Positions 2,973 to 38,042 of a stretch of DNA of 64,000 nt are shown one piece after another. The translations under genes and the position numbers were made by a program. The stretch lies in NCBI GenBank assembly GCA_038087875.1, contig CM075988.1, positions 14,696,001 to 14,760,000 of the forward strand, written 5' to 3'. The notes under the pieces are model-generated. The model saw only the letters and a list, made by a program, of their open reading frames with translations. It was not told where the DNA came from and searched no databases. The DNA comes from Malacoraja senta (lineage: Eukaryota). Within the stretch, counting starts at the first letter, position 1. Each line of letters opens with the position of its first letter.

Positions 2973-4330
2973 TAAGGTGAGAGAGGGAGAATGTAATGGA
3001 GATATGCAGGGCAAGTCTTTTTTAACACAGAGGGTTGTGGGGACATGGAATCCATTGCCATGGTGGTGGTGGAGGCAGCTACTATAGTGGCATTTAAAAA
3101 GCCTTTAGATAGGCACATGGATTTGCAAGGAATTGAGGGATATGGATCACTTGCATGTAGATGAGATGGGATCAGCAGGCAGCAAAGAGTAGGAGTAAAC
3201 GGGTCCTTTTCACAATGGCAGGCAGTGACTAGTGGGGTACCGCAAGGCTCAGTGCTGGGACCCCAGCTATTTACAATTTATATTAATGATCTGGACGAGG
3301 GAATTGAAAGCAACATCTCCAAGTTTGCGGATGACACTAAGCTGGGGGGCAGTGTTAGCTGTGAGGAGGATGCTAGGAGACTGCAAGGTGACTTGGATAG
3401 GCTGGGTGAGTGGGCAAATGTTTGGCAGATGCAGTATAATGTGGATAAATGTGAGGTTATCCACTTTGGTGGCAAAAACGGGAAGGCAGACTATTATCTA
3501 AATGGTGGCCGATTAGGAAATGGGGAGGTGCAGCGAGACCTGGGTGTCATGGTACACCAGTCATTGAAAGTAGGCATGCAGGTGCAGCAGGCAGTGAAGA
3601 AAGCGAATGGTATGTTGGCCTTCATAGCAAGAGGATTTGAGTATAGGAGCAGGGAGGTTCTACTGCAGTTGTACAGGGTCTTGGTGAGACCACACCTGGA
3701 GTATTGCGTACAGTTTTGGTCTCCAAATCTGAGGAAGGACATTATAGCCATAGAGGGAGTGCAGAGAAGGTTCACCAGACTGATTCCTGGGATGTCAGGA
3801 CTTTCATATGAAGAAAGACTGGATAGACTTGGCTTATACTCGCTAGAATTTAGGAGATTGAGAGGGGATCTTATAGAAACGTACAAAATTCTTATGGGGT
3901 TGGACAGGCTAGATGCAGGAAGATTGTTCCCGATGTTGGGGAAGTCCAGGACAAGGGGTCACAGCTTAAGGATAAGGGGGAAATCCTTTAAGACCGAGAT
4001 GAGGAAAAACTTTTTCACACAGAGAGTGGTGAATCTCTGGAACTCTCTGCCACAGAGGGTAGTTGAAGCCAGTTCATTGGCTATATTTAAGAGGGAGTTA
4101 GATGTGGCCCTTGTGGCTAAAGGGATCAGGGGGTATGGAGAGAAGGCAGGTACGGGATACTGAGTTGGATGATCAGCCATGATCATATTGAATGGCGGTG
4201 CAGGCTCGAAGGGCCGAATGGCCTACTCCTGCACCTATTTTCTATGTATCTATGTATCTATGTATCATATTAAGCATAAACATTGTGGGCAGAAGGGCCT
4301 GTTCCTGTGCTGTACTGTTCTGTTCTATGT
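2973..4330 (+). mobile_element. Older CR1 3' end (2973-3174 and 4264-4330) split by a younger CR1
   Basis: FLTQRVVGTWNPLP motif; the 3' UTR resumes after the insert (GGGCAGAAGGGCCTGTTCCTGTGCTGTACTGTTC); ATCA lies at both junctions. Confidence 0.7.
3175..4263 (+). mobile_element. Young 5'-truncated CR1 LINE (RT C-half, 3' UTR, (TCTATGTA)n tail)
   Basis: Uninterrupted 312-aa frame 3225..4163 with GVPQGSVLGP, FADDTK, RPHLEYC and FFTQRVV motifs; short tandem tail. Confidence 0.95.
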
Positions 4331-9483: not shown

Positions 9484-10360
9484 ACTGTTGTTGGACAAAT
9501 CACAGATGGTGATGAGTCAGAGTATAGAAGTGAGATCGACCGATTGACCAAATGGTGCCAGCACAACAACCTGGCTCTCAACATCAGTAAAACCAAGTAA
9601 CTGATTGTGGACTTTGATATGGGAAGGATGAGGACCCACAATCCTGTTTATATCAATGGGACAATGAGGGAGAGGGTCAAAAACTTCAAATACCTGAGCG
9701 TGCATATTTCTGAAGATCTTTCCTGGACCCAGCACACTGATGCAATTATAAAGAAGGCACATCAGCGACTTTACTTCCTGAGGCGATTACGGAGATTTGG
9801 CATGTCAAAGAGGATTCTCCTGAACTTCTACAGGTGCACGGTAGAGAGCATACTGACTGGTTGCATCGTGGCCTGGTTCAGCAACTTGAACGTCCAGGAA
9901 CGGAAAAGAATGCAAAAAGTTGTGACCACAGCCCAGTCCATCACTGGTTTTGACCTCCCCACCGTTGAAGGGATCTATCGAAGTCGCTGCCTCAAAAAGG
10001 CAGCCAACATCATCAAGGACCCACACCGTCCAGGCCACACACTCAGCTCACCATTGCCATCAGGAAGAAGGTTCAGGAGCCTGAAAACTGTAACGTCCAG
10101 GTTCAGGAACAGCTTCTTCCCTACAGCCATCAGGCTATTAAACACAACAACAAATAAGCTCTGAACTGCAACAGACTATAATTATTATTGCACTATATTT
10201 GTCATTTATTGAGTATGTGTGCATGTGTATATATACACACTGAACTTTTTTTCTTCTCCCGTTATGTACGATGTTTACATATTCTGTTGTGCAGCAGCAA
10301 GCAAGAATTTCATTGTCCTATCTGGGACACATGATAATAAAGCACTCTTGACTCTTGATA
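9484..10360 (+). mobile_element. Rex1/Babar-clade LINE, 5'-truncated, with stop codon
   Basis: TVVGQITDGDESEYR...KKAHQRLYFLRRLRRF...FYRCTVESILTGCIVAW...HPGH-like...RFRNSFFPTAIRLLN; TAA at 9598-9600; (CTCTTGA)n tail. Confidence 0.9.
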
Positions 10361-15080: not shown

Positions 15081-16100
15081 CAAGTTCAAGTTCAAGTTCA
15101 AGTGAGTTTATTGTCATGTGTCCATGATAGGACAATGAAATTCTTGCTTTGCTTCAGCACAACAGAACATAGTAGGCATTGACTACAAAACAGATCAGTG
15201 TGCCCATATATCATTATATAAATATATACACACATGAATAAATAAACTGATGAAGTGCAAATAACAGATAATGGGCTATTAATGTTCATAGTTTTGTCCG
15301 AGCCAAGTTTAATAGCCTGATGGCTGTGGGGAAGTAGCTATTCCTGAACCTGGTCGTTGCAGTCTTCAGGCTCCTGTACCTTCTACCTGAAGGTAGCAGG
15401 GAGATGAGTGTGTGGCCAGGATGGTGTGGGTCCTTGATGATACTGCCAGCCTTTTTGAGGCAGCGACTGCGATAGATCCCCTTGATGGAAGGGAGGTCAG
15501 AGCCGATGATGGACTGGGCAGTGTTTACTACTCTTTGTAGTCTTTTCCTCTCCAGGTCGCTCAAGTTGCCGAACCAAGCCACGATGCAACCGGTCAGCAT
15601 GCTCTCTACTGTGCACCTGTAGGAGTTAGAGAGAGTCCTCCTTGACAAACCGACTCTCCGTAATCTTCTCAGGAAGTAGAGGCGCTGATGTGCTTTCTTA
15701 ATAGTAGCATCAGTGTTCTCGGACCAGGAAAGATCTTCAGAGATGTGCACGCCCAGGAATTTAAAGCTCTTGATCCTTTCAACCATCGACCCATTGATAT
15801 AAACGGGACTGTGGGTCCCCATCCTACTCCTTCCAAAGTCCACAATCAGTTCCTTGGTTTTGCCGGTGTTGAGGGCCAGGTTGTTGTGCTGGCACCATAT
15901 GGACAGTTGCTCGATCTCTCTTCTATACTCTGACTCATCCCCATCAGTGATACGTCCCACAACAGTGGTGTCGTCAGCGAACTTGATGATTGAGTTCGCA
16001 CTATGACCGGCTACGCAGTCATGAGTAAAGAGTGAGTACAGCAGGGGGCTGAGCACGCAGCCTTGAGGTGCTCCCGTGCTGATTGTTATCGAGTCTGACA
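15081..16100 (-). mobile_element. Rex1/Babar-clade LINE, 5'-truncated, open frame
   Basis: 278-aa ORF 15286..16122 with GAPQGCVLSPLLYSLFTHDC, KFADDTTVVG and RFRNSYFPTAIRLLN; (ACTTGA)n tail. Confidence 0.93.
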
Positions 16101-16169
16101 CATGAATGGGATCAATAACCATTAAGAAAATTGTTTGAATTATCCTATTTTATTTTAATTTATTTTACT

Positions 16170-17129: not shown

Positions 17130-18080
17130 AAAGTACGTATTGAGGCCTGTTTAGATGCAGAGTTTTTTCCCTCTACCATACTTTCAGGCAATGGGTTCTA
17201 CACACTCCCCTCATCTCCTTTTATCAACTACAAATCTCTGCCCTTAGTTTTAGATCCCTCACCTATGGAAATATGTGAATGTTTAATCCATCTAAGTCTC
17301 CCATAATTGTGTACACCACCATTAACAATTCTCTGTGCCAAGAAAATAACCCCAGTAAATCCAATAAAGTGTCATTGCTACAAATTTCCAATTCTGGCAA
17401 CGTCTTCATAAAACCTCTTTTAGTTCTGTCCAACACACACATCTTTCATATAATGTGGTGACTAGATCTATAAGGAGTACTGAAAGTGTGGTCTGACCTG
17501 TGGTATACAGTTCCACCATAACCTCCCCGCTCTCATATGCCTCGCTTAAAAAAGGGAAGCATCCAATATGCCTTTTTAACCAATTTTTTGACCTGTCCCA
17601 TAGCCTTTAAGAATCTGTGAATGTATACAAGGTTTTCCCATCATGGTTCTTTCATACCACTTTGAAACTTTCCATTTATTAATTGCTTTTTTTGTTGTTG
17701 TTTATTATGGTATTTATTATGGTATTATGGTATTTACGGAGCATTATGTTTACATATCTGTTGTGTGGCTGCAAGTAAGAATTTTATTGTTCCCTATCAG
17801 GATATATGACAATAAAAAAACTCTTCAATCTTGTAGATTCCCTGCCTTTGTGCTCTTTCCCAAATGTGGTACTCCACACCTCTCTTGATTAAATTCCATT
17901 TGCCATTTTCTTTCCATTTGAGGAAGCAATCTCTATCTCTCATAGTTTCCCTCTTCACTACTAACAGTTTGTCCAATTATGGCATCAACTGCAATCTTCT
18001 TTATTATGCCCCTACAAATAGAACTAGAGAATTATTATATAATACAAAAAGCAAAACATTCAGTACTGAACTTTACTGGC
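17130..18080 (-). mobile_element. Old CR1 relic interrupted by a Rex1-type tail (17640-17830)
   Basis: Degenerate similarity to other CR1 copies (e.g. the reverse of QMEFN...GKSTK). Confidence 0.55.
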
Positions 18081-18508
18081 TCAGTACATTTACATAAACA
18101 CCCATCAACAATCATGTGTAAGGAGGAACTGCAGATGCTGGTTTAAACCGAAGAGATGGGACAAAAAGCTGGAGTAACTGTGGGTCAGGCAGCATCTCTG
18201 GAGAAAAAGAATAGGTGATGTTTGGGGTCAAGACCCTTCTTCAGCATCAACAATTATGCTTTGCTTCCTGCAACTGGGATATTTTTAGGTCCAATTTAAA
18301 CTGGTCAAAAGCCTTGGTAAAATCTTGAAGACTCTATCAAACACACTACACTCATCAATCCTCTTTGATTTATTCTCTTAAAAAATTAGATGCAATTACA
18401 ATATATTTGCCATTGTTAAATTTGTGGAAAATTTTACACACAGTAAGAGAAGCCAACCCTAGATTTCAAACACGAAAGGTTGAAGTTATATATGGAAGAT
18501 ATTTAGGT

Positions 18509-18562
18509 GGGGTGGAAGATTGCAACCTTCACGTGGTCTGCCCTGTTTCGACGAATGCAATC
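18509..18562 (+). ncRNA. Minimal HDV/CPEB3-like self-cleaving ribozyme (predicted)
   Basis: P1 GGGGTGG/CTGCCCT with G1-U wobble; P2 GATTGCA/TGCAATC; P3 ACC/GGT; L3 TTCACGT; J1.1 GT; vestigial P4 TTCGA; J4/2 CGAA. Confidence 0.8.
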
Positions 18563-18645
18563 AACCTAGCGTGCACAATCAAGTAAGATCATATAGAACA
18601 AGTTGTCCTACAACTTTAGGCTCTGCACGCCATACGCAAGAAGAA
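18509..18645 (+). mobile_element. Short ribozyme-headed retroposon with (AAG)n tail
   Basis: 14-bp TSD GAAGATATTT[A/T]GGT at 18495-18508 and 18646-18659 (one mismatch); tail CAAGAAGAAGAAGA; no tRNA A/B boxes seen. Confidence 0.85.
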
Positions 18646-19451
18646 GAAGATATTTTGGTAAAGAGGACTATGGAAACTACAATTGGGGAAGGTAATTTGG
18701 CCGGTTGAAAGTCAATCTTTTTTATCATAACCTTTGTAGATCCTTTGAAAAGACTCCAGATTAAAGTTAAAATGGACTAAGAAATGGAAGGATTGTCTGT
18801 TAAACCACCAAGTAGTTTAATCCCAAATCTAATTTATTTCTGCTATTCTTTCAAAAGCATAACACGGCCAATTCATGCTAATAGTGTGCTTCTGTAATGA
18901 CTATATTCTAGTATGACTAAACAATGCACTTAAACAGAAGTTTGACGGTCAGCGAGTGTCAGTAAGTCAGTAAAAGAGAATCAGTAAATTGTACAGAATT
19001 TAAATAAGTTAATTTAACATCTCATTATTTAGTGTCTATTGATGCATGCCTTGTGTATATCTTATTCTGAACTGAGCAAGCTCTGCATAGACTATTTTGC
19101 AATTTTACAACAAAAAATGTCTTTCCCATCTGATTTATAATCTAATTGTATTGATTTTTTTTACCACCGTTACCTTTTCTTTCCTTTTCTTAGAAGTCGC
19201 ATCCAAATCTCTGCCAATGTCATTCTCCAATGCTAGAGGAGGACTTTGTTCCCCTCTTCCTCTGTCCTGGGAATAATTATAATCACAGAGCTGTATCTCA
19301 ATTCTTGATGCCACAGCAAGTTTAAACATCATCAGCAATTCTGTACAACTAAAAATTTAACATGCATATTTGATATGCAGCGTGTAAATGAATACTTGTG
19401 AAAGAAATATAAAATGTTACGAGGCAATAATCCTGATGCATTGCAATGAAG

Positions 19452-33293: not shown

Positions 33294-36200
33294 TATTATT
33301 TTTTTTTTAATTTTTATTTATTAGAAGTACATTACATCACAGCCACATACATTAATACTCGTCATTTATATCTTCTTACAATTAATGTACTCCCTTTATT
33401 TATTTTTTTACACTAAAGAAAGAAAAGATTGAAAGAGAGAAGAAAGTGAAGGAAAAAGTGCAAGTGTAGAAAAGTGTAGAAAATGTAACAACAAAAAAGG
33501 ACGAAGACCCTATGAGAGCGAAATTAAAAACAAAAAGAAAAAGAGTTAAGAAATAGGCCCTAAGAAAAGAAAAGAGAAAGAGAAAAAAAGAAAAACAAAT
33601 GTTTTTTTTTGAGCATCACGTAAATAGGACATACCAACTCTTCAACTATCATCCCCCCTTACCCGACCTCAATTTTTTATTTTTTTAAAGTACTTTTGCA
33701 CCCTATGTTTGTAATAATTCTATAAATGCAGACCACGTCAGGTGGAAGTGATCTGGTTTACCTGCTAGGAGGAGTCTTATCTCTTCAAGGTGTAGTGTTT
33801 CAAACATATTTGAAATCCACATATTTATAGTTGGTATTGGAGCCTTCTTCCAAAATTTTAGAATTAGCTTTTTTCCAGTTATTAACCCATAATCCATTAA
33901 TTTCTTTTGAAACACATTTAGTTCTGGATCATCTTCCGTTATTCCGAAGATAATCCATTCTGCTTTGGGTATCAGTCTTGTTTTAAATAACTTTGTAAAG
34001 ATTTCAAAAATTTCATTCCAAAATTTTTGAATTTTTGTACAGAAGACAAATGAGTGCGCTATAGTTGCTTCTTGGGATTGACATTTATCACAAATAGATG
34101 ATACGTTTGGGAAAATTTTATGAATTTTAGTTTTCGAATAATATAATCTATGTAAAATTTTAAATTGTATTAAAGTGTGTCTTACATTAATCGAGCATTT
34201 ATGTACTTTTAATAAGTATTCATTCCAACTTTCCTTTGAAATTTTAATAGCTAACTCTTGTTCCCAGTCTCTTCTGATACCCTCCGTAGATGGTATTTGT
34301 ACATTTAAGATAATATTGTACAAATATGATATTAAGTTTGCTGATTCCGCTTTTATCTGCATTGCCTCGTCCAGTACATCTGCTGGGTTATTATGATGAT
34401 CTTTTATATATTTTTTCAAATAGTCGCATATTTGAAAGTATTTAAAATATTGATTATTTCCGAGTTTATATTTTATTTGTAATTGTTGAAATGAAAGTAA
34501 TTTTCCAGTTTCATACAAGTCACCAAGCGTTTTAATTCCTAGTCTATCCCATTGTGTATAAGCTTTATCTATAATAGAAGGACTAAACGAAGGGTTATTG
34601 ACTATAGGTAATAAAAGTGATAAGTTTCTTAATTTTAAATTTTGTTTTATTTGTTTCCAAATACGGATTGTACTATGAATAATTGGGTTCTTATTATAGT
34701 TTATGTTATTCAATTTCATTGGAGAGAGGAGGATCGCTCCAATGTTTCTAGAGGAGCAATCCTCTTTCTCCATTACAATCCAGTCTACTTGCTGGGCGGA
34801 GTTATCCATCAGTTGAATCATGTTTTTAATATTTACTGACCAATAATAATACATAAAATTGGGTAGTGCTAGACCCCCCAATACTTTAGATTTATTCAGA
34901 TGGGTTTTTTGTATTCTATGTGATTTATAGTCCCATATAAAATTAGTGATATCTGAGTCGAGTTTTTTAAAAAACTTCTTAGGTAAGTATATAGGAATTG
35001 ATTGAAATAGGTATAAAATTTGTGGTAAAAAGATCATTTTTATTGCGTTTATTCGGCCTATTAAAGACATCGGAAGCGTTTTCCAGAATTTAATTAATGT
35101 ATTCAGTTTATTAAGTAGGGGGTCAAAATTTGCCCTGAGCATACCTTGATATGCTCTGGTAATTTCGATTCCCAAATATTTAAATTTTTCTGTAGCTATT
35201 TTAAAAGGGAATTTTAAAAGATGTGTTGAATCTTTCGGTTTTATTGACATAATTTCACTTTTATTCCAATTTATTCTATATCCAGAAAAAGATCCGAAGT
35301 CTTCAATTAAATTTAATATATTTGGTATAGTGATTTGAGGTTTTGTAATATACAATAATATATCATCTGCGTATAAAGATATTTTATTATATGAGTCTTT
35401 AGTATTATATCCATGAATATCAGGGTGTATTCTAATTTTTTCTGCTAGCGGTTCAATAATGAGAGCAAACAGCTGTGGTGATAATGAGCATCCTTGTCTA
35501 TTTCCCCTTGATAGTTGAAATTTCGAGGATAATATGTTATTAGTAAGTATTCTAGCTGTAGGTTTGTTATATAGTAACTTAATCCATAAAATAAAATTCT
35601 CTCCCAGTTGAAATTTTTGTAATACTTTATCCATATAATTCCATTCTACTTGATCAAATGCTTTTTCAGCATCCAGCGAAATAATTGATAATTCTTGATC
35701 TTCAGATTTGTGTGAGTGCATTATGTTGAGTAGACGTCTCATATTATTAGAAGAGTATCTCTTAGGGATAAACCCTGTCTGATCTGGGTTTATTAATTTA
35801 CTAATGTATTTACTTAATCTTCTGGCTAATGTTTTCGCTAATATTTTTTGATCTGTGTTTAACAATGCTATAGCTCTATATGAGCCAGGTTCTTCTAAAT
35901 CCTTATTTTTCTTAGGTATTAATGTAATCGTTGATTCCGCTAATGTATCAGGTAGTATTCGTTTTTTAAAAGCGTATTGGTACATTTTTTGTAATCTTGG
36001 TATTATTTTATCATAAAAGTTTTTATAAAATTCATTAGTAAATCCATCAGGGCCTGGTGTTTTTCCATTTTTTAGTGAGTTTATTGTATCTTCTAATTCC
36101 TTAATTGAGATTTGTGCACCCAGTTCCTCTTGTTCCTTCAGCTCTAACTTTGGAAGATTACAGGTATCCAAGAACTTTGTGATATTATTGGAATCAATTA

Positions 36201-38042
36201 TCGTTTTAGATGTATACAAATTCTCGTAAAATTGCGCAAATCTTTTATTAATATCCTTCGGTGTTGTTAATAATTCCCCTTTATCTGATTTGATCTTTGG
36301 TATAGTATGTTCCTTTTCTCGTTTTTTTAGCTGGCGAGCCAAAAGTTTATGCGGTTTATCCCCAAATTCAAAGTGCTCTTGTTTTGTAATTTGAAAAAGT
36401 CTTATAAGTTTGGCAGATAATAATTTATTTAATTTAAATTTTAAAATTATTATTTTATTATGTTTATCTATTGATGGATCTTTAGCATTATCTATATCCA
36501 TTTGTCTAATAAGTTCTTCTAACTGTCTTTGTTCATTCTTATTCTTTTTATTTTGAAAAGCTTGATATGAAATTATAATACCCCTAATGTATGCTTTAAA
36601 AGATTCCCAAAGTAAAGTAGGCGATATATCTGAAGTATCATTTGTTTGAAAAAAGACCTCCATTTGTTCTTTTAAATATATACTCGCTTGTGGATCTTTT
36701 AAAATTTGAGAGTTAAATCTCCAGAATGAATTATTCTTAGACAATCCTTCCAGTTTTAAAAAGAAAGTTAGTGGAGAATGGTCTGAAATTGAATTTGTAT
36801 GATATATTGCATTAGATGTTTGGGGGATTAATTTTGTATCCAGCAGAAAGTAGTCTATACGTGAGTATGTCTTATGTACCATTGAGTAAAACGAATATTC
36901 CCTGCCAGTTGGATTCACAATTCTCCAAACATCTGCTATATTAGTGTTGTTTATGTAGGTATTGAGGAGTTCCCCAGTTTTCGATTTCATATTCCCTCTC
37001 TGTTTTTGACTTGATTTATCTAAGTACGGGTCTAAAACACAGTTAAAGTCTCCGCCTATTATAACATTTTGATAGTTTGACTCTGCAATTATATTGAAGA
37101 TTTTATTGAAAAAGTGGGGGTTATCAAAGTTAGGGGCATATATATTTACCAAAGTAAGTGGAGTGTCATGGATTTCTCCATTAACTATTAGGTATCTCCC
37201 TTCTATATCTGTTATAATATTCTTTGCTTTAAATGGTATACCTTTTCTTATGATAATTGACGTGCCTCTAGATTTTGAAGTGAATGAAGAGTGGTATGTT
37301 TGACCTATCCATTTCGCCCTCAGCCTAACTTGGTCCTGAGGTTTTAGGTGTGTTTCTTGTAGGAAGGTAATGTCAGAATTATACATTTTTAGCTGAGCTA
37401 ATATCTTACCCCTTTTGATAGGTTCATTAATACCTCTTATATTCCAACTACAAAATGAGACTCCTCCTAGGTTCTTTTGTGTGGTGTCATGCATTTTGAA
37501 TAATTATAGTACCTTTGAATCTTGTGGTGCGTCCATATCCCAGGTCTTTAGGTATTGGGGGAGTTTTTGAATTATTAACTTTTGTTGGTATGTCCATATT
37601 ATTCTTATCACTAAACACAAAACACAAACAAGTGATTTTATGTAATAAAAAAAAAACTAAAAATGTGAGGCTACAGTGTCTATAGTCGGCACTGTAGCAA
37701 GTGACCCACCTGTAGGTGGGAAAAAACCTTATTTTGACTTCCATTGCGTTGTTGCTCAACTCGCTCCGCTCTCTTAGTTAATCATAACATATTAAAATAT
37801 TAAAACGAGGCCTCACATTCATATATATAATACAATTTTACCCTGATATTTCCTTATAACATATATATATATCAGAGTTTAATTATTAAACCAATATTTT
37901 TGATTTCAATAAGAATCAGCTGTTGGTTGAAGGGGTTAACGAGACGTGCTCCTGGACATAAGCCAGGAGCTCGTTTCTCATCCCCTCCTCCCGCTTATAG
38001 ACAAGGTTACAATTTATTAAAAATTCATATTAGTATGTTAGT
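33294..38042 (-). mobile_element. L1-clade LINE, 5'-truncated (no ORF1)
   Basis: 9-bp TSD TCAAATTAT at 33285-33293 and 38043-38051; minus-strand AATAAA and A-rich tail at 33294-33322; ~400-bp 3' UTR; ~550 bp upstream of ORF2. Confidence 0.93.
33703..37494 (-). CDS. L1 ORF2p: APE endonuclease, reverse transcriptase and C-terminal CCHC
   Basis: 1263 aa without interruption; SWNIRG, LQETH, GGDFN, SRIDYF, SDH; PGPDG, DAEKAFD, QGCSLSP, YADD; CDKC-X8-H-X4-C. Confidence 0.97.
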   Translation of the reverse strand: MHDTTQKNLGGVSFCSWNIRGINEPIKRGKILAQLKMYNSDITFLQETHLKPQDQVRLRAKWIGQTYHSSFTSKSRGTSIIIRKGIPFKAKNIITDIEGRYLIVNGEIHDTPLTLVNIYAPNFDNPHFFNKIFNIIAESNYQNVIIGGDFNCVLDPYLDKSSQKQRGNMKSKTGELLNTYINNTNIADVWRIVNPTGREYSFYSMVHKTYSRIDYFLLDTKLIPQTSNAIYHTNSISDHSPLTFFLKLEGLSKNNSFWRFNSQILKDPQASIYLKEQMEVFFQTNDTSDISPTLLWESFKAYIRGIIISYQAFQNKKNKNEQRQLEELIRQMDIDNAKDPSIDKHNKIIILKFKLNKLLSAKLIRLFQITKQEHFEFGDKPHKLLARQLKKREKEHTIPKIKSDKGELLTTPKDINKRFAQFYENLYTSKTIIDSNNITKFLDTCNLPKLELKEQEELGAQISIKELEDTINSLKNGKTPGPDGFTNEFYKNFYDKIIPRLQKMYQYAFKKRILPDTLAESTITLIPKKNKDLEEPGSYRAIALLNTDQKILAKTLARRLSKYISKLINPDQTGFIPKRYSSNNMRRLLNIMHSHKSEDQELSIISLDAEKAFDQVEWNYMDKVLQKFQLGENFILWIKLLYNKPTARILTNNILSSKFQLSRGNRQGCSLSPQLFALIIEPLAEKIRIHPDIHGYNTKDSYNKISLYADDILLYITKPQITIPNILNLIEDFGSFSGYRINWNKSEIMSIKPKDSTHLLKFPFKIATEKFKYLGIEITRAYQGMLRANFDPLLNKLNTLIKFWKTLPMSLIGRINAIKMIFLPQILYLFQSIPIYLPKKFFKKLDSDITNFIWDYKSHRIQKTHLNKSKVLGGLALPNFMYYYWSVNIKNMIQLMDNSAQQVDWIVMEKEDCSSRNIGAILLSPMKLNNINYNKNPIIHSTIRIWKQIKQNLKLRNLSLLLPIVNNPSFSPSIIDKAYTQWDRLGIKTLGDLYETGKLLSFQQLQIKYKLGNNQYFKYFQICDYLKKYIKDHHNNPADVLDEAMQIKAESANLISYLYNIILNVQIPSTEGIRRDWEQELAIKISKESWNEYLLKVHKCSINVRHTLIQFKILHRLYYSKTKIHKIFPNVSSICDKCQSQEATIAHSFVFCTKIQKFWNEIFEIFTKLFKTRLIPKAEWIIFGITEDDPELNVFQKKLMDYGLITGKKLILKFWKKAPIPTINMWISNMFETLHLEEIRLLLAGKPDHFHLTWSAFIELLQT

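What the first reader, a model, noticed from the sequence alone, without database searches (positions are those of the whole stretch)
18495..18659. ~140-nt retroposon whose 5' end is a minimal HDV/CPEB3-like ribozyme
Seen: 18509-18562 fits the HDV double-pseudoknot order exactly. P1 is 18509-15/18538-44 (starting with G1-U), P2 is 18518-24/18556-62 (7 Watson-Crick pairs), P3 is ACC/GGT, L3 is TTCACGT, followed by GT, a 5-nt vestigial P4, and C18552-GAA. A 14-bp TSD (one mismatch) ends at 18508, the base just before G1, and the element ends in (AAG)n. Established: the mammalian CPEB3 ribozyme has the same L3 UUCACGU and CGAA J4/2; HDV-like ribozymes cut 5' of G1 and define the 5' ends of R2, RTE and L1Tc elements; P4 is dispensable. 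Inference: this is a promoterless SINE-like family released from read-through transcripts by self-cleavage and copied by a LINE, possibly RTE-clade given the tail. I know of no description of it in cartilaginous fishes, but I could not search. Caveats: P1 has three G-U pairs here (T18539 may be a decayed CpG), and GU-UUCG-AC could sequester the catalytic C.
Basis: partly seen in the sequence, partly recalled or inferred. Interest (0 to 1): 0.88.

Follow-up and report, generated by a model that had tools for sequence, protein, structure and literature searches.

The report
Ribozyme-headed SINE retroposon family
This is one decayed copy of a very abundant 137-base "jumping" DNA element that starts with what looks like a stripped-down self-cutting RNA of the hepatitis-delta/CPEB3 type, and its relatives in the same genome may bear on where the mammalian CPEB3 ribozyme came from.

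Summary
Bases 18509-18562 fit the HDV double-pseudoknot order as described. The element has over 6,000 copies in the 1.94-Gb genome. Of 100 copies sampled from their 3' ends, 73 begin at G1 and 88 within 4 nt of it. Target-site duplications (median 11 bp) were found in 77 of 86 copies and abut G1 in 56.

The last 38 nt plus the (GAA)n tail equal the 3' end of an RTE-like LINE: its last codons, a 24-nt UTR and the tail.

The genome also holds sister families whose 5' ends are full-size ribozymes. They pass Rfam's CPEB3 model (39 hits over cut-off, best 64.2 bits). They include a 3.1-kb RTE-like LINE and a second P4-less SINE-like family. Across families, 17 of 26 pairs show changes on both sides. 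A model built without the SINE hits the window once, at 18509-18562 (E 8.6e-5).

Catalysis is untested, the SINE head stays under all Rfam cut-offs, and the host class was not established. This is a new variant of a known kind.

The parts
18495..18508 (+). 5' copy of the target-site duplication (GAAGATATTTAGGT). It ends at the base before G1.
   Evidence: Family-wide, TSDs were found in 77 of 86 copies, median 11 bp.
18509..18562 (+). Head: a 54-nt P4-less HDV/CPEB3-like ribozyme fold. The predicted cleavage site is between 18508 and 18509.
   Evidence: A covariance model built from sister families only hits exactly 18509-18562 (27.4 bits, E 8.6e-5). Rfam RF02682 aligns in register but under its cut-off (12.6 bits).
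18509..18515 (+). P1 5' strand, GGGGTGG.
   Evidence: Pairs with 18538-44. The consensus-like copy has one G-U fewer.
18518..18524 (+). P2 5' strand, GATTGCA.
   Evidence: 7 Watson-Crick pairs with 18556-62. 6 of 7 P2 pairs change on both sides between families.
18525..18527 (+). P3 5' strand, ACC.
   Evidence: Pairs with GGT 18535-37. Sister families have GCG/CGC or GCA/TGC.
18528..18534 (+). L3, TTCACGT. C18530 is the P1.1 partner of G18545.
   Evidence: Identical to L3 of the Rfam CPEB3 consensus. The C-G pair is invariant in 14 of 14 sequences.
18535..18537 (+). P3 3' strand, GGT.
18538..18544 (+). P1 3' strand, CTGCCCT. T18539 is a decayed CpG (family C).
   Evidence: C in 70 and T in 8 of 86 copies.
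18545..18546 (+). GT after P1. G18545 forms the single P1.1 pair.
   Evidence: Invariant in 14 of 14 aligned ribozymes. Same as the CPEB3 consensus.
18547..18551 (+). 5-nt linker TTCGA in place of helix P4.
   Evidence: Aligns opposite the 24-29-nt P4 hairpins of sister families. A second family has TTCCA here.
18552..18555 (+). J4/2, CGAA. C18552 is the presumed catalytic cytosine.
   Evidence: Aligned with CGAA of the CPEB3 consensus.
18556..18562 (+). P2 3' strand, TGCAATC.
18563..18607 (+). Family-specific body. It contains a predicted long-range stem and an AAGTTGT/ACAACTT hairpin.
   Evidence: It was not found joined to other sequence (3 hits). 8 of 45 positions differ between subfamily consensuses.
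18608..18645 (+). LINE-derived 3' end: the last codons and TAG stop of the partner LINE's ORF, its 24-nt 3' UTR, and the start of the tail.
   Evidence: 38 of 38 identical to LINE 3' ends L116, L119, L121 and L122 (32 of these nt were the selection pattern). LINE reading frame.
18638..18649 (+). (AAG)4 microsatellite tail. It overlaps the start of the 3' TSD.
   Evidence: Tails of variable length in other copies.
18646..18659 (+). 3' copy of the target-site duplication (GAAGATATTTTGGT).

Best explanation
The element is a decayed copy of a SINE-like, non-coding retroposon family of 137 nt plus a (GAA)n tail. Its head is not a Pol III promoter but a minimal HDV/CPEB3-type self-cleaving ribozyme of 54 nt, with helix P4 replaced by 5 nt.

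Most likely mechanism:
1. A master copy without its own promoter is transcribed as part of a longer host or neighbouring-element transcript (inferred).
2. The ribozyme folds as it is made and cuts 5' of G1. This removes all upstream RNA and fixes the 5' end (inferred from the anatomy, from copies starting at G1, and from published RTE, R2 and L1Tc ribozymes).
3. The 3' 38 nt plus (GAA)n copy the 3' end of an RTE-like LINE. That LINE's reverse transcriptase uses them to start target-primed reverse transcription at a nicked site (tail identity shown; recognition inferred).
4. Copying to the RNA's 5' end gives full-length insertions that begin at G1 and are flanked by duplications of about 11 bp (shown).

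The head belongs to a lineage of CPEB3-like ribozymes. In this genome that lineage also heads a 3.1-kb RTE-like LINE, older families, and a second P4-less SINE-like family (shown by sequence, by the Rfam model and by covariation).
For: Copy number:
- 6332 hits to a 34-nt head pattern and 8097 hits to a 32-nt tail pattern, each with up to 2 mismatches. Reversed-pattern controls gave 0.

5' ends:
- 37 of the 40 best genome matches start at query base 1.
- All 30 loci looked at start at GGGG next to unrelated flanks.
- Of 100 copies anchored only on the 3' pattern, 73 start at G1, 10 at G2 and 5 at G3-G5.
- TSDs of at least 6 bp were found in 77 of 86 distinct near-full-length copies, median 11 bp. 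They abut G1 in 56.

No Pol III head:
- No tRNA by ARAGORN.
- No tRNA, 7SL or 5S Rfam match at E up to 10.

LINE tail:
- Positions 100-137 plus the tail are identical to the 3' ends of a LINE with at least 854 and 2779 first-look candidates.
- That LINE's ORF ends ...DAVLAWMSTLDLQL-TAG, 24 nt before (GAA)n.

Fold:
- The descriptor gives one hit in the window and none in 30 Mb of random sequence.
- For the consensus-like copy L020, the pseudoknot-free MFE of the 54 nt is exactly P1+P3 (-12.4 kcal/mol). This leaves both P2 strands free.

Homology and covariation:
- Sister families in the same genome pass Rfam CPEB3: 39 of 60 listed matches are over the 35-bit cut-off, best 64.2 bits; alignments are.
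- These families also start at G1 next to unrelated flanks. TSDs abut G1 in a 3.1-kb LINE copy (11 bp) and in two copies of a 175-nt family (12 bp).
- In a 14-sequence alignment, 96.3% of cells pair against 75.7 +/- 1.7% in shuffles (0 of 500 reach the observed value). 17 of 26 pairs change on both sides. Slid controls give 38-47% paired and at most 3 such pairs.
- A covariance model built from the 10 non-SINE sequences hits the window once, at 18509-18562 end to end: 27.4 bits, rough E 8.6e-5.
- On L020 the only three Rfam families at E up to 10 are CPEB3, HDV-F-prausnitzii and HDV. All three align in register with G1.

Subfamilies:
- Three subfamily consensuses differ at 2 of 54 head positions against 8 of 45 body positions (Fisher p 0.04). 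No helix pair is broken; U5-G32 becomes U5-A32.

Literature:
- Cleavage at the 5' junction is reported for RTE, R4 and L1-clade elements (PMC3774820, passages).
- Minimal HDV-like ribozymes lack P4 (PMC10879173, passages).
Against: - No cleavage assay exists, and no RNA 5'-end data. The public runs that hold the element are kept as contigs only, which cannot show RNA ends.
- The SINE head is under every Rfam gathering score: 16.7 against 35, 14.4 against 44 and 12.2 against 50 bits on L020. The window copy has no CPEB3 hit at all at E up to 10.
- The whole 137-nt RNA folds no better than shuffles (z +0.83), although that method ignores pseudoknots.
- For the window copy itself, an alternative fold (-10.9) beats P1+P3 (-9.5 kcal/mol) because of the C-to-T change in P1. 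This copy may be inactive.
- The base after the catalytic C is U in one SINE subfamily (14 of 86 copies) and C in the second minimal family. Both depart from the published C-R-R-A descriptor (PMC6326823).
- Covariation rests on about five families, and the rows within a family are not independent.
- The partner LINE's own 5' end was not recovered. None of its 150 scored copies has an open frame over 406 aa.
- GTTTCGA at 18545-51 loosely resembles a Pol III B box (my reading of the sequence; the B-box consensus is recalled).
Confidence: 0.8

Rival explanations
1. The precise 5' end is a transcription start. The head acts as an internal promoter (Pol III type 2-like, or a Pr77-like Pol II promoter), and the HDV-like fold is an inactive relic or only an RNA-stability or protein-binding structure.
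For: GTTTCGA at 18545-51 loosely resembles a B-box core (sequence; the B-box consensus is recalled). The L1Tc Pr77 head is both a promoter and a ribozyme (PMC3383444, abstract in the listing). No cleavage data exist. The SINE head is under all Rfam cut-offs.
Against: I saw no A-box-like sequence in the head. ARAGORN and Rfam show no tRNA, 5S or 7SL likeness. The same start-at-G1 rule holds for a 3.1-kb protein-coding LINE and for another short family that share only the ribozyme architecture with the SINE. That fits a ribozyme-defined end better than three separate promoters. All catalytic-core positions and all helices are kept in every subfamily consensus.
Confidence: 0.1
2. The head cleaves poorly or not at all without P4. 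It is kept because the LINE protein or the translation/RNP machinery binds the 5' pseudoknot, as proposed for R2. The 5' ends would then be inherited from an ancestral active ribozyme plus faithful full-length copying of already processed master transcripts.
For: The R2 protein binds a pseudoknot within its ribozyme, and HDV-like ribozymes are proposed to help translation (PMC6765202, passages). The J4/2 second base varies among G, U and C. The window copy favours another fold.
Against: A non-coding 137-nt element needs no translation. Every new master copy sits behind new upstream sequence, so some process must recreate the G1 end at each generation. P4-less HDV-like ribozymes are described as a natural class (PMC10879173; that they are active in vitro is recalled from Riccitelli 2014, not seen here). 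Two independent P4-less families each reached high copy number.
Confidence: 0.08
3. Chance resemblance: an ordinary SINE whose first 54 nt happen to fit the HDV topology.
For: The descriptor was written after seeing the sequence. Rfam scores are low.
Against: 0 descriptor hits in 30 Mb of random sequence. An independent covariance model finds it. There is covariation with sister families that pass the CPEB3 model. The fold starts exactly at the element's first base.
Confidence: 0.01

Closest known systems
HDV-like ribozymes at the 5' ends of non-LTR retrotransposons (RTE, R2, R4, Baggins, L1Tc; Ruminski et al. 2011, Eickbush & Eickbush 2010, Sanchez-Luque et al. 2011)
   Same: The ribozyme is the first sequence of the element. 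The predicted cut site is the 5' junction. The role is release from a co-transcript. The partner and sister LINEs here have RTE-like architecture. Basis in print: PMC3774820 and PMC6765202 passages. Ruminski 2011 itself could not be read.
   Different: Here the carrier is a 137-nt non-coding composite of head, unique body and LINE 3' end, with over 6,000 copies. The ribozyme has no P4. Its core is of the CPEB3 type.
Ribozyme-bearing non-autonomous derivatives of LINEs: R2 SIDEs (PMC3414825) and NARTc/SIDER of trypanosomatids (PMC3383444, PMC4035085)
   Same: These are non-coding elements that keep a LINE's 5' HDV-like ribozyme and a 3' end used by the LINE's enzyme (abstracts in the listing; PMC6765202 passage).
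   Different: Those are internal-deletion derivatives of their own LINE. The SINE's head and body were not found attached to any LINE: junction tests gave 2 and 3 hits. Its helices differ from every LINE ribozyme seen. It inserts genome-wide rather than into rDNA.
Mammalian CPEB3 ribozyme (Rfam RF00622)
   Same: L3 UUCACGU, the CCCU-GU after P1 with a single C-G P1.1 pair, and J4/2 CGAA followed by U are identical to the Rfam consensus. Sister families in this genome score 37-64 bits on that model.
   Different: The SINE scores 16.7 bits against a cut-off of 35. It has no P4. Its P1 distal half, P2 and P3 have different sequences. It is multicopy and mobile, not a single intronic locus. The host looks non-mammalian (class not shown).
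Minimal HDV-like ribozymes (drz-Mtgn, Riccitelli et al. 2014) and theta ribozymes of gut phages (PMC10879173)
   Same: Double-pseudoknot core with P4 absent or reduced to a short linker (PMC10879173 passage).
   Different: Those come from metagenomes and phages, next to tRNAs. Their origin was stated as undetermined. Here two P4-less forms sit at the 5' ends of eukaryotic retroposons.
Hammerhead-bearing SINE-like elements (Schistosoma Sm-alpha) and twister variants in Schistosoma non-LTR elements (PMC8501958)
   Same: Short or non-LTR retroposons that use a small self-cleaving ribozyme for 5' processing (PMC6765202 passages; PMC8501958 abstract).
   Different: A different ribozyme class. Sm-alpha is described as Pol III-transcribed and tandem.

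Membership tests
HDV-like (delta) self-cleaving ribozymes | Nested double pseudoknot in the order P1-P2-P3-L3-P3'-P1'-(P4)-J4/2-P2' | tested here: met
   (7+7+3 pairs); 96.3% of cells paired across 14 sequences, with 17 of 26 pairs changing on both sides.
HDV-like (delta) self-cleaving ribozymes | G1 paired with a pyrimidine at the cleavage site; P1.1 between L3 and the bases after P1 | tested here: met
   G18509-T18544. C18530-G18545 is invariant in 14 of 14 sequences. The second P1.1 position is U/U, as in the CPEB3 consensus. Descriptor from PMC6326823.
HDV-like (delta) self-cleaving ribozymes | Conserved L3 U..C.CG and J4/2 C-R-R-A with a catalytic C | tested here: met
   TTCACGT and CGAA in the window copy. 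However, one SINE subfamily has CTAA and family F4 has CCAA.
HDV-like (delta) self-cleaving ribozymes | Reaches the curated Rfam score of an HDV-family model | tested here: not met
   Window copy: RF02682 12.6 bits against 44. L020 copy: RF00622 16.7 against 35, RF02682 14.4 against 44, RF00094 12.2 against 50. All align in register.
HDV-like (delta) self-cleaving ribozymes | Mg2+-dependent self-cleavage 5' of G1 giving a 5'-OH | not testable with these tools
   No raw RNA reads were on offer. Contigs cannot show ends.
Mammalian CPEB3 ribozyme (RF00622) | Score at or above 35 bits on the family model | tested here: not met
   Not met for the SINE. Met by sister families R1, F2, F3 and F4 of the same genome (37.2-64.2 bits).
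Mammalian CPEB3 ribozyme (RF00622) | Single conserved copy in an intron of CPEB3 | tested here: not met
   Over 6,000 dispersed copies with TSDs. The host's CPEB3 locus was not examined.
SINE (LINE-dependent short retroposon) | Short, non-coding, multicopy, flanked by TSDs, with a 3' end shared with a LINE | tested here: met
SINE (LINE-dependent short retroposon) | Head derived from a Pol III gene (tRNA, 7SL, 5S) with an internal promoter | tested here: not met
   No such match. The head is a ribozyme fold instead.
RTE-clade LINE (as partner) | About 3.2 kb, a single ORF with APE then RT, a very short 3' UTR and a short-repeat tail (features recalled from Malik & Eickbush 1998) | tested here: met
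   Sister LINE R1: about 3.1 kb, APE+RT frame pieces, about 25-nt UTR, (GAA)n. Tail donor R2: ORF stop 24 nt before (GAA)n. R1 and R2 are 33% identical over 319 aa.
RTE-clade LINE (as partner) | Phylogenetic placement of the RT within the RTE clade | not tested
   No reference RTE sequences were at hand. Named homologues are unclassified invertebrate proteins.

The most novel reading that the evidence does not exclude
The mammalian CPEB3 ribozyme is a domesticated copy of a retroposon-borne ribozyme lineage that still heads RTE-like LINEs and SINEs in this apparently non-mammalian, fish-like genome. Family F2 shares with the Rfam CPEB3 consensus not only the catalytic core but also freely variable helix sequences: P1 GGGGGCC/GGCCCCU, P2 AGCAG-A/U-CUGCU and the P4 stem CAGAUUCU/GAAUCUG. 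That argues for common descent rather than convergence. Within the same lineage, natural selection has twice stripped the ribozyme to about 54 nt by deleting P4. These would be eukaryotic minimal HDV-like ribozymes with a clear job.
Probability: 0.5. Interest if true: 0.85.

Novelty: new variant of a known kind. Interest (0 to 1): 0.76.

Why it matters
It adds a SINE type whose head appears to be a self-cleaving ribozyme rather than a Pol III promoter. That would explain how a promoterless 137-nt element could reach thousands of precise full-length copies.

It places naturally P4-less HDV-like ribozymes in a eukaryotic genome with an obvious function. Published minimal forms come from metagenomes and phages, and their origin was stated as unknown (PMC10879173).

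The sister families score up to 64 bits on the model of the supposedly mammal-only CPEB3 ribozyme. This turns the origin of that ribozyme, and with it the proposed link to HDV, into a concrete comparative question.

My searches found no description of such elements. Repbase and Dfam could not be consulted, and Ruminski 2011 and Webb 2009 could not be read.

Tried and rejected
- Rfam on the region: no family reaches its cut-off. The weak mir-7 and SNORA81 hits nearby (E 1.1 and 2.6) are taken as chance.
- Search for a LINE carrying the same head:
  - Head followed by non-SINE bases gave 2 hits, a deletion variant and a truncated copy.
  - Body followed by non-SINE bases gave 3 hits.
  - Tail preceded by non-SINE bases at position 106 gave 0 hits, because the shared part starts further upstream, at position 100.
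- L034's upstream sequence is single-copy, so it is a short truncated insertion and not a LINE.
- LINEs met in the window and loci (L1/Tx1-like with an A-rich tail, CR1-like with a (TCTATGTA)n tail, L2-like) do not share the tail.
- Public runs: the element's 31-mers occur in 24 listed runs of 13 studies under 8 coded organism labels. Only one run is recorded as RNA.
- Laying four of these runs gave contigs only, so there is no evidence on expression or on RNA 5' ends. The flanks of L020 are themselves another repeat, which dominates the depth table.
- The partner LINE's 5' end was not recovered. No R1-like ORF lies downstream of the F2, F3 or F4 copies.
- Host class:
  - The protein-atlas look-up gave only "Chordata" for one member.
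  - Named relatives of the window's L1-like ORF are teleost, at 35-43% identity.
  - Cartilaginous fish is neither confirmed nor excluded.
- Earlier scan notes have nothing on this genome or sequence. Eight notes on HDV-like ribozymes in phages and a DNA transposon did not bear on this case.
- A full-text search for a 31-nt stretch of the element found 0 papers.
Full report
**1. The observation**

- P1 is GGGGTGG (18509-15) with CTGCCCT (18538-44): seven pairs, three of them G-U, and a G1-U pair at the cleavage site.
- P2 is GATTGCA (18518-24) with TGCAATC (18556-62): seven Watson-Crick pairs.
- P3 is ACC with GGT, closing L3 TTCACGT.
- Then follow GT, the five bases TTCGA where P4 would be, C18552-GAA, and the P2 3' strand.
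- A 14-bp direct repeat with one mismatch flanks the element (18495-18508 and 18646-18659). Its first four bases cannot be told from the (AAG)n tail, so the duplication is 10-14 bp.

I wrote a simple descriptor following the published HDV-like descriptor: G1-Y, a 7-bp P1, L3 U.C.CG, P1.1, and J4/2 CRRA (PMC6326823, passages). It hits the 64-kb window once on both strands, at 18509. It hits nothing in 30 Mb of first-order Markov sequence. I wrote the descriptor after seeing the sequence, so this is a loose bound.

**2. It is a large retroposon family whose copies begin at G1**

*Copy number.*
- A genome search gave 1568 first-look candidates. Forty were scored, at 96-100% identity, and 37 of them start at query base 1.
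- Pattern counts with up to 2 mismatches are 6332 for a 34-nt piece of the head and 8097 for a 32-nt piece of the tail. The reversed-pattern controls gave 0.

*5' ends.*
- In the 30 best loci, similarity starts at GGGG next to unrelated flanks, and target-site duplications follow the (GAA)n tail.
- To avoid selecting on the head, I fetched the first 100 perfect matches to the tail pattern on contig C1.
- Of these, 73 start at G1, 10 at G2, and 5 at G3-G5.
- Seven are truncated at positions 8-75.
- Five share only the last 38 nt or so.

*Target-site duplications.*
- Among 86 distinct near-full-length copies, a duplication of at least 6 bp was found in 77. The median is 11 bp and the mode 11-12 bp.
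- In 56 copies the duplication abuts G1 directly. In 9 copies none was found.

*The window copy is decayed.*
- The family has C where the window has T18539 (70 C and 8 T of 86).
- For the consensus-like copy L020, the pseudoknot-free minimum-energy fold of the 54 nt is exactly P1+P3 (-12.4 kcal/mol).
- For the window copy, another fold is slightly better: -10.9 against -9.5 kcal/mol.

**3. The tail comes from an RTE-like LINE**

- Four of the five head-less tail matches share 255 nt of upstream sequence. It reads as the end of an ORF...HKWGMTDSPACDCGHPDQTIPHIVNDCP...DAVLAWMSTLDLQL, stopping at TAG. After the stop come 24 nt and then (GAA)n.
- The fifth (L034) has the LINE-type bases just upstream of the shared tail but otherwise unique upstream sequence, so it is a short truncated insertion of the LINE type.
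- The SINE's positions 100-137 plus its tail are identical to this LINE end. 32 of those nt were the selection pattern.
- This LINE ("R2" in my notes) has at least 854 DNA candidates and 2779 protein candidates.
- None of 150 scored copies has an open frame over 406 aa. A 350-aa piece contains RT motifs.
- The SINE's head and body were not found attached to anything else. Junction tests gave 2 and 3 hits.
- The element is therefore a composite: ribozyme head (1-54), unique body (55-99), LINE tail (100-137).
- It has no tRNA, 7SL or 5S likeness.

**4. Sister ribozymes in the same genome**

*Rfam scores.*
- Rfam's CPEB3 model (RF00622) does not see the window copy at E up to 10.
- It scores the consensus-like copy at only 16.7 bits (E 0.018 in an 81-nt scan), against a cut-off of 35. 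RF02682 gives 14.4 bits and RF00094 gives 12.2.
- Those were the only three families listed, and all align in register with G1.
- Run over the whole genome, the same model gave 60 matches, 39 of them over the cut-off, with a best score of 64.2 bits. None of 14 control genomes went over the cut-off.

*What the fetched examples are.*
- **R1.** Layout: GGGGATC-AA-GGTAGAA-GCG-TTCACGT-CGC-GATCCCT-GT-(8-bp P4 hairpin)-CGAA-TTCTACC.
  - The ribozyme is followed within 30 nt by ATG and an endonuclease N-terminus.
  - One copy (L136+L139) is about 3.1 kb, with APE and RT frame pieces broken by frameshifts, a 3' UTR of about 25 nt, (GAA)n, and an 11-bp duplication abutting G1.
  - A second fragment is 97.8% identical in protein over 278 aa, so the family is young.
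  - R1 and the tail-donor LINE are 33% identical over 319 aa.
- **A variant of R1 (L137).** Its P1 is GGGGGTC/GACCCCT, its P3 is GCA/TGC, and its J4/2 is CTAA.
- **F2 and F3.** These are older, CpG-decayed families. Their P1 and, for F2, their P2 and P4 stems read like the mammalian consensus printed by Rfam.
- **F4.** This is a second short element of about 175 nt with 12-bp duplications abutting G1. Its head also lacks P4: GT-TTCCA-CCAA where the SINE has GT-TTCGA-CGAA.

**5. Covariation and an independent homology test**

- I aligned 14 natural sequences: 4 SINE, 4 F4, 3 R1, the R1 variant, 1 F2 and 1 F3.
- On this alignment the double-pseudoknot structure has 96.3% of cells paired, against 75.7 +/- 1.7% in shuffles (0 of 500 reach the observed value).
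- 17 of 26 pairs change on both sides: 3 of 7 in P1, 6 of 7 in P2, 2 of 3 in P3 and 6 of 8 in P4.
- Sliding the partners by 1-3 columns gives 38-47% paired and at most 3 such pairs.
- Rows within a family are close kin, so this amounts to about five independent lineages, not fourteen.
- A covariance model built from the ten non-SINE rows finds one hit in the whole window. It is 18509-18562, end to end, at 27.4 bits with a rough E of 8.6e-5.
- Three SINE subfamily consensuses differ at 2 of 54 head positions. One is G32/A32, which keeps the pair with U5. The other is G45/T45, next to the catalytic C.
- The same consensuses differ at 8 of 45 body positions (Fisher p 0.04).

**6. How it most likely works**

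*Shown.*
- The anatomy.
- The G1 start with abutting duplications in three families.
- The LINE-derived tail.
- The conserved and covarying fold.

*Inferred.*
- A promoterless master copy is read through from outside.
- The head cuts 5' of G1 and leaves a 5'-OH.
- The RTE-like LINE's enzyme recognises the shared 3' end and tail and copies the RNA to its new 5' end.

This is the mechanism published for RTE, R2, R4 and L1Tc (PMC3774820 and PMC6765202, passages). Natural HDV-like ribozymes without P4 are described (PMC10879173, passage). That they are active in vitro is recalled from Riccitelli 2014, which I did not see.

*Against.*
- There is no cleavage or RNA-end evidence. The public runs that hold the element are contigs only.
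- The head is under every Rfam cut-off.
- The base after the catalytic C varies: G, U in 14 of 86 SINE copies, and C in F4.
- The full element is no more stable than shuffles in a pseudoknot-blind fold (z +0.83).
- The tail donor's own 5' end was not recovered.

I put 0.8 on the ribozyme-release mechanism, about 0.1 on an internal-promoter start, about 0.08 on a structural, non-cleaving head, and about 0.01 on chance.

**7. Comparison and novelty**

- By mechanism it is the known "HDV-like ribozyme at the 5' end of a non-LTR element". Non-autonomous carriers are also known: R2 SIDEs and NARTc.
- What differs:
  - a SINE-type composite with a ribozyme in place of a Pol III head;
  - very high copy number;
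  - loss of P4, which also occurs in a second family;
  - a CPEB3-type core.
- It is not a member of Rfam's CPEB3 family by score, but its sisters are.
- My literature searches found no such description.
- One review proposes in general terms that conserved vertebrate ribozymes were domesticated from mobile elements (PMC7761336, passage).
- Repbase and Dfam were not available. Ruminski 2011 and Webb 2009 could not be read, so an existing annotation cannot be excluded.
- The host's class was not established. Named relatives of the window's L1-like ORF are teleost proteins at 35-43% identity, and the closest hits (49-54%) are unnamed. That fits a non-mammalian, fish-like host and no more.

**8. 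Verdict**

It is a new variant of a known kind. The added lead is that the mammalian CPEB3 ribozyme belongs to a retroposon-borne lineage.

Noticed in passing
L136 (72-394) + L139 (G000:C1:86602702-86605810 approx.): A roughly 3.1-kb RTE-like LINE copy. Its first 73 nt are a full-size ribozyme scoring 59.7 bits on Rfam CPEB3. The ORF (APE+RT) starts about 30 nt after the ribozyme and is broken by frameshifts. It has a 3' UTR of about 25 nt, a (GAA)n tail, and an 11-bp TSD AATCACAACCT abutting G1.
   Followed up: partly
L147, L149, L153-L159; L155+L160, L147+L161: A second SINE-like family of about 175 nt with a P4-less CPEB3-like head (linker TTCCA, J4/2 CCAA, 6-bp P1). It ends in ATAAGAAG, and 12-bp TSDs abut G1. 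It still reaches 34-44 bits on RF00622.
   Followed up: partly
L140, L141, L143, L148 (family F2); L142, L145, L150, L152 (family F3): Older, CpG-decayed ribozyme families. Their P1 and, for F2, their P2 and P4 stems read like the mammalian CPEB3 consensus. What element they head was not resolved. No LINE ORF lies downstream in the two copies extended by 1.5 kb.
   Followed up: partly
window 33706-37503 (-): An uninterrupted 1266-aa L1/Tx1-like ORF2 (Exo_endo_phos, RVT_1, weak zf-RVT) followed by an A-rich tail. It may be a recently active LINE. Named relatives are teleost, at 35-43% identity.
   Followed up: partly
window 3165-4160 (+), 15289-16149 (-), 9601-10161 (+): Fragments of a CR1-like LINE with a (TCTATGTA)n tail, and of L2-like LINEs (their C-terminus hits Pfam ALKBH8_N) with (TTGAAC)n-type tails.
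   Followed up: no
run X18, contig record 14, laid on L020:1500-1624: One low-depth metatranscriptome contig has the first 68 nt of the SINE followed directly by a full element starting at G1. This is a head-to-head partial tandem.
   Followed up: no
L020 1441-1500 and 1640-1675: The L020 copy sits inside another, roughly ten-fold more abundant repeat. Many contigs in four runs read straight across the empty site.
   Followed up: no
L030 (G000:C1:26992290): An irregular 5' junction. Extra GGGGTGGGGT-like bases lie between the TSD and the head, which starts GGGGGGAAG. This may be a template jump or slippage at the G-run.
   Followed up: no
window 17760-17845 and 18359-18493: Weak Rfam matches to mir-7 (19.3 bits, E 1.1) and SNORA81 (18 bits, E 2.6), both far under their cut-offs. 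Taken as chance.
   Followed up: no
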